The notes under the pieces: generated by a model
Seen by the model: only the letters and a program-made list of their open reading frames with translations
The model's database searches: none
What the model was told of the DNA's origin: nothing
Assembly (NCBI RefSeq): GCF_003334315.1
Contig: NZ_QOWR01000003.1
DNA from: Escherichia coli
Lineage (GTDB): Bacteria; Pseudomonadota; Gammaproteobacteria; Enterobacterales; Enterobacteriaceae
Direction: 5' to 3' (one strand)
DNA length: 64,000 nucleotides
Made by a program: the position numbers and the translations under genes
Part shown: positions 15,158 through 16,034 of the stretch, piece by piece
Numbering within the stretch: position 1 is the stretch's first letter
Layout: each line of letters opens with the position of its first letter

Positions 15158-15952
15158 ATGGATCTGTTGTACCGGGTAAAAACGCTTTGGGCCGCGCTGC
15201 GCGGTAATCATTACTCCTGGCCTGCCATCGATATCACCCTCCCCGGCAATCGCCATTTTCATCTGATTGGCAGCATTCATATGGGTAGCCACGATATGGC
15301 TCCCCTGCCCACCCGTTTGCTCAAAAAGCTCAAAAACGCCGATGCGCTGATCGTCGAGGCTGATGTTTCCACCAGCGATACGCCTTTTGCTAATTTGCCT
15401 GCCTGCGAGGCGCTGGAAGAGCGCATTAGCGAGGAGCAACTCCAAAACCTGCAGCACATTAGCCAGGAGATGGGCATTTCTCCCTCACTCTTTTCTACCC
15501 AACCGCTGTGGCAAATCGCGATGGTTCTTCAGGCGACGCAGGCACAAAAACTGGGGCTGCGGGCAGAATACGGTATCGATTACCAGCTATTGCAGGCGGC
15601 GAAGCAACAACATAAACCCGTGATTGAACTGGAAGGGGCTGAAAACCAGATTGCCATGTTGCTCCAGCTCCCTGACAAAGGACTGGCGCTGCTGGACGAT
15701 ACGCTGACCCACTGGCATACCAACGCACGGTTGCTGCAACAAATGATGAGCTGGTGGCTGAATGCACCGCCGCAAAATAATGATATAACGCTGCCCAATA
15801 CGTTCAGTCAGTCGCTGTACGATGTGCTGATGCATCAGCGAAATCTCGCCTGGCGGGATAAATTACGCGCCATGCCGCCGGGGCGATATGTGGTCGCGGT
15901 CGGTGCACTACACCTGTATGGAGAAGGGAATTTGCCGCAAATGTTGCGCTAA
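15158..15952 (+). CDS. ybaP: TraB/GumN-family protein
   Basis: 264 aa; family call from memory of this locus. Confidence 0.8.
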   Translation: MDLLYRVKTLWAALRGNHYSWPAIDITLPGNRHFHLIGSIHMGSHDMAPLPTRLLKKLKNADALIVEADVSTSDTPFANLPACEALEERISEEQLQNLQHISQEMGISPSLFSTQPLWQIAMVLQATQAQKLGLRAEYGIDYQLLQAAKQQHKPVIELEGAENQIAMLLQLPDKGLALLDDTLTHWHTNARLLQQMMSWWLNAPPQNNDITLPNTFSQSLYDVLMHQRNLAWRDKLRAMPPGRYVVAVGALHLYGEGNLPQMLR

Positions 15953-16034
15953 AAAAATGGCCAATATCGCTATTGGCCCGTCAAAGAGGAATTTCATTTT
16001 TTTATTATTATGCCGTCACTTTAAGCGACGGTGT
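15951..16034 (-). ncRNA. chiX: ChiX (MicM/SroB) Hfq-dependent small RNA
   Basis: Minus strand reads ACACCGTCGCTTAAAGTGACGGCATAATAATAAAAAAATGAAATTCCTCTTTGACGGGCCAATAGCGATATTGGCCATTTTTTT, ending in a terminator hairpin plus U-run; lies in the ybaP-ybaK gap. Confidence 0.8.

What the first reader, a model, noticed from the sequence alone, without database searches (positions are those of the whole stretch)
15951..16034. Hfq-dependent sRNA ChiX in the ybaP-ybaK gap, invisible to the ORF track
The minus strand matches the ~84-nt ChiX/MicM sequence as I recall it and ends in a Rho-independent terminator. Its U-tract overlaps the ybaP stop codon on the other strand. An ORF-only annotation would leave this 200-bp gap empty.
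Basis: partly seen in the sequence, partly recalled or inferred. Interest (0 to 1): 0.4.

Follow-up and report, generated by a model that had tools for sequence, protein, structure and literature searches.

The report
Known E. coli small RNA ChiX

Summary
The finding is correct in every checkable detail, and it is already known. Window 15951..16034 (minus strand) is a full-length match to Rfam RF00368 (sroB, the Rfam name for ChiX/MicM/RybC), scoring 82.1 bits against a gathering score of 44. It is base-for-base identical to the curated MG1655 gene chiX (b4585, 84 nt), which lies between ybaK and ybaP. A promoter-like site (TTGGCA-17-GACAAT) ends 7 nt upstream of the 5' end. The RNA ends in an 8-bp GC-rich hairpin followed by seven U. 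The last two U are antisense to the final two bases of the ybaP stop codon. Published Term-seq data map a very strong RNA 3' end at the equivalent MG1655 base. The single-stranded stretch UCCUCUUUGACG is perfectly complementary to the chiP ribosome-binding site and to the chbB-chbC spacer, the two partners named in the literature. Orthologues in at least 119 Enterobacterales loci keep the position between ybaK and ybaP. Their terminator helix shows compensatory changes, and their 5' hairpin varies in sequence while its structure is kept. PGAP-annotated E. coli records leave the gap empty, so the remark that the gene is invisible to the ORF track also holds. Novelty: none.

The parts
15951..16034 (-). 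chiX transcript (84 nt; ChiX position p corresponds to window 16035-p)
   Evidence: Rfam RF00368 scores 82.1 bits over the full model. The sequence is identical to MG1655 chiX b4585. A Term-seq 3' end lies at the equivalent of window 15951.
16064..16069 (-). -35-like hexamer TTGGCA of the chiX promoter
   Evidence: Found by the consensus scan. TTGGCA or TTGCCA occupies this place in 70 of the 92 orthologous loci that have a promoter-like match. It is a consensus match only; no promoter activity was measured here.
16041..16046 (-). -10-like hexamer GACAAT, ending 7 nt upstream of the annotated +1 (16034)
   Evidence: Found by the consensus scan with a 17-nt spacer. GACAAT is retained in 54 orthologous loci and is visible at the 5' edge of many rows of the alignment.
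16013..16031 (-). 5' stem-loop (ChiX 4-22, 8 bp, 3-nt loop)
   Evidence: Present in both the MFE and the centroid fold. All 109 orthologues fold a hairpin of at least 5 bp here, with 88 distinct hairpin sequences and a median z of -2.6 against shuffles.
15991..16012 (-). A-rich single-stranded linker (ChiX 23-44), containing the A-R-N repeat run AAUAAUAAAAAA (ChiX 26-37, window 15998-16009). This is the inferred binding site for the distal face of Hfq.
   Evidence: Mean unpaired probability is 0.72 and the A-R-N run was found by pattern search. [quoted passage not shown] Assigning this particular stretch to the distal face is my inference.
15977..15990 (-). Seed (ChiX 45-58). UCCUCUUUGACG (45-56) pairs with the chiP ribosome-binding site, and CUCUUUGACGGG (47-58) pairs with the chbB-chbC spacer.
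   Evidence: Both targets show a 12-nt perfect Watson-Crick match. The linker-only duplexes are -21.0 and -25.0 kcal/mol, and 0 of 1000 shuffled targets reached either value. This stretch is upper-case (highly conserved) in the Rfam consensus.
15959..15978 (-). Terminator hairpin (ChiX 57-76, 8 bp, loop GCGA)
   Evidence: Found by the terminator scan and present in the fold. Across 109 orthologues 99.0% of cells pair, and 21 cells have changes on both sides (A-U to G-C) at two pairs. No shuffle out of 500 reached these values, and slid registers pair at only 23-52%.
15951..15957 (-). U7 tail (ChiX 78-84). It is the 3' end of the RNA and the inferred binding site for the proximal face of Hfq. 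Its last 2 nt (15951-15952) are antisense to the AA of the ybaP TAA stop codon.
   Evidence: Read directly from the sequence. The Term-seq 3' end falls at the last U. The overlap is also present in the MG1655 annotation.
15158..15952 (+). ybaP (TraB/GumN family), the convergent neighbour whose stop codon overlaps the chiX 3' end
   Evidence: ORF list and annotation. A convergent ybaP homologue follows ChiX in 110 of 112 orthologous loci that have enough flanking sequence.
16156..16635 (+). ybaK (Cys-tRNA(Pro) deacylase), the divergent neighbour upstream of the chiX promoter
   Evidence: ORF list and annotation. A divergent ybaK homologue lies within 600 nt in 97 of 99 orthologous loci that have enough flanking sequence.

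Best explanation
Window 15951..16034 (minus strand) is the chiX gene of E. coli, which encodes the 84-nt Hfq-dependent sRNA ChiX (also called MicM, SroB or RybC).

Mechanism, with the basis for each step:

(a) Sequence shown here; expression level from the literature. The RNA is transcribed from a sigma-70-type promoter (TTGGCA-17-GACAAT) and is expressed without any specific inducing condition.

(b) Shown here. It folds into a 5' hairpin, an A-rich single-stranded linker that carries the seed, and an intrinsic terminator hairpin with a U7 tail.

(c) Literature for the Hfq faces; inference for which residues. It is held on Hfq as a Class II sRNA. The U-tail would bind the proximal face and the AAU/AAA repeats of the linker the distal face.

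(d) Complementarity shown here; the effect comes from the literature. The seed UCCUCUUUGACG pairs with the Shine-Dalgarno region of the chiP (chitoporin) mRNA, 8-19 nt upstream of its AUG. This blocks translation and promotes mRNA decay and Rho-dependent termination within chiPQ.

(e) Complementarity shown here; the effect comes from the literature. When chitosugars induce the chbBCARFG operon, the chbB-chbC spacer pairs with the same seed through a longer duplex (12 bp plus 7 bp). This titrates and destabilises ChiX and so de-represses chiP. ChiZ, a fragment of the chiP 5' UTR, also sponges ChiX.

(f) Inference. The strain that supplied this window behaves like K-12, because the gene, its promoter region and its neighbours match at all 300 aligned bases.
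For: Identity and annotation:
- Rfam RF00368 matches over its full length at 82.1 bits (gathering score 44), E = 1.8e-10.
- It is the only Rfam hit in the gap even at E<=1.
- Window 15900-16200 matches MG1655 at all 300 aligned bases, and MG1655 annotates chiX b4585 at the same place.
- It occurs as one copy in 5423 of 5426 complete E. coli genomes, at 95% identity or more.

Signals and structure:
- The consensus scan finds both a promoter-like and a terminator-like site.
- The fold is -24.1 kcal/mol, z = -3.88, with the two hairpins and an open linker.

Pairing with the published partners:
- There are 12-nt perfect matches to the chiP leader, over the AAGAGGA Shine-Dalgarno sequence, and to the chbB-chbC spacer.
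- The duplex z-scores are -4.4 and -6.2, and 0 of 1000 shuffled targets reach the observed energies.

Conservation:
- At least 120 Enterobacterales loci carry the seed plus the start of the terminator.
- Synteny with ybaP holds in 110 of 112 loci and with ybaK in 97 of 99.
- The terminator helix covaries.
- The 5' hairpin is kept as a structure across 88 distinct sequences.

Experiments in the literature on the identical K-12 RNA:
- A Term-seq 3' end lies at 507287 (+) in three conditions.
- ChiX is detected on northern blots and is a Class II Hfq binder.
- Deleting chiX raises chiP reporters 12- to 74-fold, and clones carrying the chbBC spacer relieve the repression.
- Mechanism review; ChiZ sponge and Rho involvement.
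Against: I found nothing substantive against this reading. There are four caveats.

- No expression data exist for the strain that supplied this window.
- The chiP and chb target sequences were taken from MG1655, because they lie outside the window.
- The orthologue set was collected by requiring an exact match to the seed plus GGCC. Invariance of those 19 columns in my alignment is therefore by construction and is not independent evidence. Independent support for seed conservation comes only from the Rfam consensus.
- The promoter is a 9-of-12 consensus match. The scan finds as many such sites in shuffled sequence (1 found against 1.1 expected), so its support rests on its position relative to +1 and on its conservation across orthologues.
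Confidence: 0.98

Rival explanations
1. The hairpin at 15959-15978 is only the transcription terminator of the convergent ybaP gene (or a bidirectional terminator), and no independent sRNA gene is present.
For: The hairpin starts 7 nt after the ybaP stop codon and is nearly palindromic, so it also forms in the plus-strand RNA. The tight convergent arrangement is conserved in 110 of 112 loci.
Against: The T-run lies only on the minus-strand side. On the plus strand the hairpin is followed by CGTCAAAGAGG, and the scan calls no plus-strand terminator there. A promoter-like site sits at the right distance for a minus-strand start at 16034. The Term-seq 3' end is on the chiX strand with very high scores. 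The Rfam model covers the 56 nt upstream of the hairpin as well. A plain terminator would not explain the 12-nt complementarity to chiP and to chbBC.
Confidence: 0.01
2. The locus encodes a small protein. The minus-strand ORF at 15908..15997 (29 aa, MKFLFDGPIAILAIFLAQHLRQIPFSIQV) starts at the AUG at ChiX positions 38-40.
For: The ORF exists and begins with ATG. It is hydrophobic, as many small membrane proteins are.
Against: The ORF runs 43 nt past the mapped RNA 3' end at 15951, so the 84-nt RNA contains no stop codon for it. The AUG is preceded by an A-run rather than a Shine-Dalgarno sequence. The AUG is not conserved: it is AAC in Pantoea, AAG or GAA in Serratia and TAC in Buttiauxella, while the nucleotides after it are invariant. 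The conserved features are helices and a pairing seed, not codons.
Confidence: 0.005
3. The match is a chance or paralogous resemblance to ChiX, such as a degenerate copy or a pseudogene that is no longer functional.
For: None found.
Against: The sequence is identical at 84 of 84 bases to the functional K-12 gene, and the promoter region is also identical. There is a single copy per genome. The score is E = 1.8e-10, 38 bits above the gathering threshold.
Confidence: 0.002

Closest known systems
ChiX / MicM / SroB / RybC (Rfam RF00368; E. coli K-12 chiX, b4585)
   Same: Everything tested is the same: sequence (84/84), ends, strand, neighbours (ybaK, ybaP), 2-nt overlap with the ybaP stop codon, promoter region, two-hairpin architecture, and a seed complementary to the chiP Shine-Dalgarno region and the chbB-chbC spacer.
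   Different: Nothing differs from K-12. Other E. coli strains differ at most by A37U in the linker or C2U at the 5' end.
Other Class II Hfq-dependent sRNAs (MgrR, CyaR, McaS)
   Same: [quoted passage not shown] The A-R-N run and the U7 tail are visible in this sequence.
   Different: They have different seeds and regulons and no sequence homology to ChiX. According to the literature, ChiX is unusual in being expressed without an inducing signal and in being controlled mainly through decoy or sponge RNAs (chbBC spacer, ChiZ) rather than at its promoter.

Membership tests
Rfam RF00368 sroB (ChiX) | Covariance-model score at or above the curated gathering threshold, over the full model | tested here: met
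   82.1 bits against a gathering score of 44, model positions 1-83 of 83, not truncated. The same hit is the only one at E<=1 in the local scan.
ChiX (E. coli chiX, b4585) | Sequence identity to the curated reference gene, with the same ends | tested here: met
   MG1655 ncRNA chiX lies at 507204..507287. Window 15900-16200 aligns to it with 100% column identity over 300 bases.
ChiX (E. coli chiX, b4585) | Genomic position: between ybaK (divergent) and ybaP (convergent, 3' ends overlapping) | tested here: met
   Shown by the window ORFs and the annotations. The arrangement is conserved in 110 of 112 orthologous loci for ybaP and 97 of 99 for ybaK.
ChiX (E. coli chiX, b4585) | Single-stranded seed complementary to the chiP (ybfM) ribosome-binding site | tested here: met
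   ChiX 45-56 forms 12 perfect base pairs with the chiP leader 8-19 nt upstream of the AUG. The linker duplex is -21.0 kcal/mol and 0 of 1000 shuffled targets reach it. The target sequence was taken from MG1655, not from the window.
ChiX (E. coli chiX, b4585) | The same seed is complementary to the chbB-chbC intergenic decoy | tested here: met
   ChiX 47-58 forms 12 perfect base pairs, and a further 7 bp follow across a 2x2 internal loop. The duplex is -25.0 kcal/mol and 0 of 1000 shuffled targets reach it.
ChiX (E. coli chiX, b4585) | A discrete transcript with the annotated ends exists | tested here: met
   The 3' end is supported by published Term-seq on the identical K-12 sequence, with a dominant 3' end at 507287 (+), equivalent to window 15951, in three conditions. 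Northern detection of ChiX is reported. The 5' end rests on the curated annotation and the promoter position. I did not look up a primary TSS dataset, and there are no data from the window's own strain.
Hfq-dependent base-pairing sRNA, Class II | Rho-independent terminator with a 3' U-tail (proximal face) plus A-R-N repeats (distal face) | tested here: met
   The sequence has an 8-bp hairpin plus U7 and the A-R-N run AAUAAUAAAAAA at ChiX 26-37. These are sequence features only.
Hfq-dependent base-pairing sRNA, Class II | Physical binding to Hfq, and dependence on Hfq for stability and function | not testable with these tools
   Reported for K-12 ChiX in the literature. It carries over to this locus only because the sequence is identical.

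The most novel reading that the evidence does not exclude
The conserved 3'-end overlap between chiX and ybaP may be functional rather than incidental. The two genes converge tightly in 110 of 112 Enterobacterales loci. Read-through of the ChiX terminator runs antisense into ybaP; a published Rho termination region lies about 181 nt downstream, at MG1655 507468 (+), equivalent to window ~15770. Conversely, any ybaP transcript that passes its stop codon would be perfectly complementary to all of ChiX. Either transcript could couple ybaP expression to ChiX levels, through cis-antisense control or a cis-encoded sponge. My evidence neither shows this nor excludes it.
Probability: 0.05. Interest if true: 0.35.

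Novelty: already known. Interest (0 to 1): 0.05.

Why it matters
Scientifically it matters little. ChiX has been characterised since 2003-2009, is curated in the K-12 reference genome and has an Rfam family. The practical point is about annotation. In every PGAP-annotated E. coli RefSeq record I inspected, the ybaK-ybaP gap carries no feature, although the sRNA is present in 5423 of 5426 complete genomes. A pipeline that relies on CDS tracks, or on default PGAP ncRNA calls, will therefore miss one of the most abundant Hfq-bound regulators in the cell. For the genome scan, this finding is a positive control: the first-stage reader identified a real non-coding gene to the exact base.

Tried and rejected
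(1) Full-length RNAduplex of ChiX against the chiP leader and the chbBC spacer. It ignores intramolecular structure and produced implausible 70-90-nt duplexes with weak z-scores (-2.3 to -2.6). I replaced it with a duplex restricted to the unpaired linker and with longest-perfect-match counts.

(2) Column-wise covariation for the 5' hairpin. MAFFT could not keep this hypervariable stem in register across genera, so I made no pair counts for it. I used an alignment-free per-sequence fold against shuffles instead. One caveat applies: the 36-nt piece that was folded includes up to 6 nt upstream of the E. coli +1.

(3) L062, a 'Candidatus Lindowbacteria' MAG, matched the 19-base search pattern but has neither hairpin nor terminator. 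I treated it as a chance hit and excluded it.

(4) Seed conservation in my own orthologue alignment is not evidence, because the loci were retrieved by exact match to that very stretch. I rely on the Rfam consensus for this point.

(5) A mobile or plasmid copy of chiX. The 2 'plasmid' places and 8 of the 10 plasmid-collection hits lie on records of 0.2-5.4 Mb, and all 10 are predicted non-mobilizable. These look like mislabelled chromosomes or chromosome fragments. The remaining two records (119 and 129 kb) also carry the flanking chromosomal ybaP/TraB gene and were not examined further. I rejected this reading.

(6) Small-ORF and plain-terminator readings: see the rival explanations.

(7) Searches failed because of file naming, and timed out in a queue. 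All three were repeated successfully.

Full report
OBSERVATION. The minus strand of window 15951..16034 reads ACACCGUCGCUUAAAGUGACGGCAUAAUAAUAAAAAAAUGAAAUUCCUCUUUGACGGGCCAAUAGCGAUAUUGGCCAUUUUUUU. A gathering-threshold cmscan of the whole 64-kb window against Rfam 15 returns RF00368 'sroB RNA' at exactly these coordinates and on this strand. The hit covers model positions 1-83 of 83 and scores 82.1 bits against a gathering score of 44, with E = 1.8e-10. SroB is the Rfam name for ChiX; a 2014 review states the synonymy 'ChiX (a.k.a RybC, MicM, or SroB)' (PMC4098024). A more permissive local scan of 15400..16700 at E<=1 finds this hit and nothing else, so no other described RNA family occupies the gap.

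IDENTITY WITH THE REFERENCE GENE. The curated MG1655 record annotates ncRNA chiX (b4585, 'small regulatory RNA ChiX') at 507204..507287 (+). It is 84 nt long and lies between ybaK (506603..507082, -) and ybaP (507286..508080, -), overlapping ybaP by 2 nt. The reverse complement of window 15900..16200 aligns to this region with 100% column identity over 300 bases. The gene, its promoter region and the flanks of both neighbours are therefore the same as in K-12. A 24-kb piece of the window around the locus is 100% identical to several E. coli chromosomes, so the window is E. coli in the orientation opposite to MG1655. The 84-nt sequence occurs once in 5423 of 5426 complete E. coli genomes, at 99% identity or more in 5012 and at 95-99% in 411. 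The variants I sampled are A37U in the A-rich linker and C2U at the 5' end. Seed, stems and terminator are untouched.

The ybaP ORF is 15158..15952 (+), with TAA at 15950..15952. The seven A on the plus strand at 15951..15957 are the U7 tail of the minus-strand RNA, so the tail overlaps the stop codon by two bases, as stated. ybaK starts at 16156, which makes the CDS-free gap 203 bp. Mechanical ORFs cross the gap (94 aa and 55 aa on the plus strand, 29 aa and 24 aa on the minus strand), but none is an annotated gene. In the PGAP-annotated RefSeq records I inspected, the only feature under the match is ybaP, through the 2-nt overlap, and the gap itself is empty. The remark that the gene is invisible to the ORF track is therefore accurate and extends to standard automated annotation.

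ANATOMY. A sigma-70-like site, TTGGCA-17 nt-GACAAT, lies on the minus strand at 16069..16041 and ends 7 nt upstream of the annotated +1 at 16034. The scan finds one such site where shuffles give 1.1. Its weight therefore comes from its position and from conservation: among 115 orthologous loci with enough upstream sequence, 92 have a TTGnnn-16..18-nAnnnT match in the corresponding place, with TTGGCA or TTGCCA in 70 and GACAAT in 54. The RNA folds at -24.1 kcal/mol (z = -3.88, 1 of 200 shuffles as good) into four parts:
- a 5' hairpin at ChiX 4-22;
- an open linker;
- a terminator hairpin at ChiX 57-76, GGCCAAUA-GCGA-UAUUGGCC;
- the tail AU7.

Base-pair probabilities give a mean unpaired probability of 0.72 for positions 23-44 and 0.71 for 45-57, against 0.18 and 0.22 for the two stems. 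The linker contains the A-R-N repeat run AAUAAUAAAAAA at positions 26-37.

MECHANISM, AND WHAT THE SEQUENCE SUPPORTS. I fetched the two published partners from MG1655, because they lie outside the window: the chiP leader (sequence) and the chbB-chbC spacer (sequence). ChiX 45-56 (UCCUCUUUGACG) is perfectly complementary to CGUCAAAGAGGA in the chiP leader, 8-19 nt upstream of the AUG, which covers the AAGAGGA Shine-Dalgarno sequence. ChiX 47-58 (CUCUUUGACGGG) is perfectly complementary to CCCGUCAAAGAG in the chbB-chbC spacer, and pairing continues for 7 more base pairs across a 2x2 internal loop. With the duplex restricted to the unpaired linker, the energies are -21.0 kcal/mol for chiP (z = -4.4) and -25.0 kcal/mol for chbBC (z = -6.2). 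None of 1000 dinucleotide-shuffled targets reached either value. Both partners therefore use the same accessible stretch, and the decoy forms the longer duplex, reaching two bases into the terminator stem.

The functional consequences come from the literature on the identical K-12 RNA.
- ChiX is expressed without specific induction and strongly represses chiP in an Hfq-dependent way.
- Deleting chiX raises chiP reporters 12- to 74-fold.
- All 25 library clones that relieved the repression carried the chbBC spacer, which pairs with and destabilises ChiX.
- The chb mRNA acts as an inducible decoy when chitosugars are present.
[quoted passage not shown] Assigning the U7 tail to the proximal face and the A-R-N run to the distal face follows the general model for Class II sRNAs and is my inference.

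TRANSCRIPT EVIDENCE. Supplementary file 1 of Adams et al. 2021 (PMC7815308; curated Term-seq 3' ends, file description) lists a 3' end at MG1655 507287 (+) in all three growth conditions, with scores of 445,279, 552,306 and 955,394. Neighbouring entries score 10^3 to 10^4. The entry is labelled primary for chiX and antisense to ybaP, and the printed sequence ends at the last U of the tail. Position 507287 corresponds to window 15951. The 5' end rests on the curated annotation and the promoter position; I did not consult a primary TSS table.

COMPARATIVE EVIDENCE. An exact-pattern scan of one genome per species (AAATTCCTCTTTGACNGGCC, 19 specified bases) stopped at its limit with 120 loci. All are from Enterobacterales except one evident chance hit, L062, and one MAG labelled only 'Proteobacteria'. 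The genera include Escherichia, Citrobacter, Enterobacter, Klebsiella, Serratia, Yersinia, Rahnella, Hafnia, Pantoea, Erwinia and Proteus. Because retrieval required this pattern, its invariance in my alignment says nothing on its own. The informative parts are the flanks.

(i) Synteny. A convergent ybaP homologue begins within a few nucleotides of the RNA's 3' end in 110 of 112 loci with enough sequence. A divergent ybaK homologue lies a median of 119 nt upstream of the 5' end in 97 of 99 loci. The exceptions are the two Proteus loci.

(ii) Terminator helix. Across 109 distinct sequences, 99.0% of cells form standard pairs, against 23-52% in slid registers. At two pairs, 21 cells carry changes on both sides (A-U to G-C). 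No shuffle out of 500 reached the observed values for cells paired, for cells with a double change, or for the covariation score. The 5' side of pairs 1-4 was fixed by the search pattern; the pairs that covary lie outside it.

(iii) 5' hairpin. MAFFT cannot align it, so I folded each sequence on its own. All 109 form a hairpin of at least 5 bp (median 8 bp, median -11.2 kcal/mol). The median z against dinucleotide shuffles is -2.6, and 70% fall below -2. There are 88 different hairpin sequences. This is the pattern expected when the structure, but not the sequence, is under selection.

RIVALS. A plain ybaP terminator is unlikely. The T-run is on the chiX strand only, and no plus-strand terminator is called there. 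It would also not explain the promoter, the 56 nt of model match upstream of the hairpin, or the complementarity to the targets. The 29-aa minus-strand ORF (15908..15997) starts at the AUG at ChiX 38-40 but runs 43 nt past the mapped 3' end. It lacks a Shine-Dalgarno sequence, and its AUG is replaced in Pantoea, Serratia and Buttiauxella while the following bases stay invariant. Chance or a decayed copy is excluded by 84/84 identity and a single copy per genome.

COMPARISON AND NOVELTY. Every defining feature of ChiX that I could test is met: covariance-model score, identity to the reference gene, genomic position, the seed against both partners, the terminator and tail, and a mapped 3' end. 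Only physical binding to Hfq cannot be tested with these tools. This is the known gene itself, not a new member or variant, so the novelty class is 'already known'.

RESIDUAL SPECULATION. The tight convergent chiX-ybaP arrangement is conserved across the order. The same eLife dataset lists a Rho termination region at 507468 (+), antisense inside ybaP and about 181 nt beyond the ChiX terminator (Supplementary file 2). That implies some read-through transcription antisense to ybaP. Whether this, or ybaP read-through antisense to ChiX, has any regulatory meaning is untested. I put it at about 5%.

VERDICT. Both the observation and the interpretation are confirmed. The finding is ordinary and is useful as a positive control and as a reminder that automated annotation omits this sRNA. 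Interest 0.05.

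Noticed in passing
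window 15951-16155, compared with RefSeq E. coli records: PGAP-annotated E. coli RefSeq records carry no ncRNA feature for chiX. Every row inspected lists only ybaP under the match, including CJ236, a K-12 derivative with coordinates identical to MG1655. Only the curated MG1655 record has ncRNA chiX.
   Followed up: partly
window ~15770 (-), equivalent to MG1655 507468 (+): Adams et al. 2021 Supplementary file 2 lists a Rho termination region antisense inside ybaP, about 181 nt past the ChiX terminator (Rho score 3.7, significance 4e-10). This implies that some read-through of the ChiX terminator is stopped by Rho.
   Followed up: partly
window 15998 and 16033 (ChiX A37 and C2): The within-species polymorphisms seen in sampled E. 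coli genomes and in E. albertii are A37U in the A-rich linker and C2U at the 5' end. E. albertii also has G16A next to the loop of the 5' hairpin. None touches the seed or the terminator.
   Followed up: yes
L042, L082, L099, L117 (Rahnella): These orthologues keep the seed but have a different terminator stem (GGCCGG..CCGGCC with a TTAAAA-type loop) in place of GGCCAATA..TATTGGCC. The terminator appears to have been replaced while the seed was retained.
   Followed up: no
L067, L093 (Proteus): A ChiX-like seed and terminator are present, but the 5' part is different and longer, and there is no adjacent ybaK/ybaP pair. In L093 the homologues lie more than 2 kb away. The sRNA gene may have been relocated in Proteus.
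   Followed up: partly
L062 (MAG labelled Candidatus Lindowbacteria): This locus matches the 19-base search pattern exactly but has no hairpin, terminator or A-rich linker. It was judged a chance hit and excluded.
   Followed up: yes
plasmid-labelled records and 2 'plasmid' places: chiX copies on records labelled as plasmids lie mostly on 0.2-5.4 Mb replicons, and all 10 are predicted non-mobilizable. These are probably mislabelled chromosomes or assembly fragments rather than a mobile copy. Two smaller records (129 kb NZ_CP137697.1 and 119 kb NZ_CP149222.1) were not examined.
   Followed up: partly
window 14576-14653 (both strands) and 21714-21791 (-): There are gathering-level Rfam hits to naRNA4 (RF02564), a model built on REP/BIME-type palindromic repeats. 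The first lies in the copA-ybaQ intergenic region and matches on both strands, as expected for a palindromic repeat.
   Followed up: no
window 29818-29882 (-): The DnaX programmed -1 ribosomal frameshift element (RF00382) matches at 96.8 bits, essentially identical to the consensus.
   Followed up: no
window 46686-46782 (-): Bacterial small SRP RNA (4.5S RNA, ffs; RF00169) matches at 68.1 bits. It is another non-coding gene that an ORF track would miss.
   Followed up: no
window 16109-16122 (+) with the T-run to ~16132: A terminator-like hairpin, CAGGCGTATGCTTG followed by CTTCGTTTTT, lies on the plus strand about 25-45 nt upstream of the ybaK start codon (16156). It could be the 3' end of ybaP transcripts, a ybaK leader element or chance (3 found against 0.9 expected in the region).
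   Followed up: no
E. coli genome collection: Three of 5426 complete E. coli genomes gave no megablast match to chiX. I did not check whether this reflects deletion, an assembly gap or divergence.
   Followed up: no
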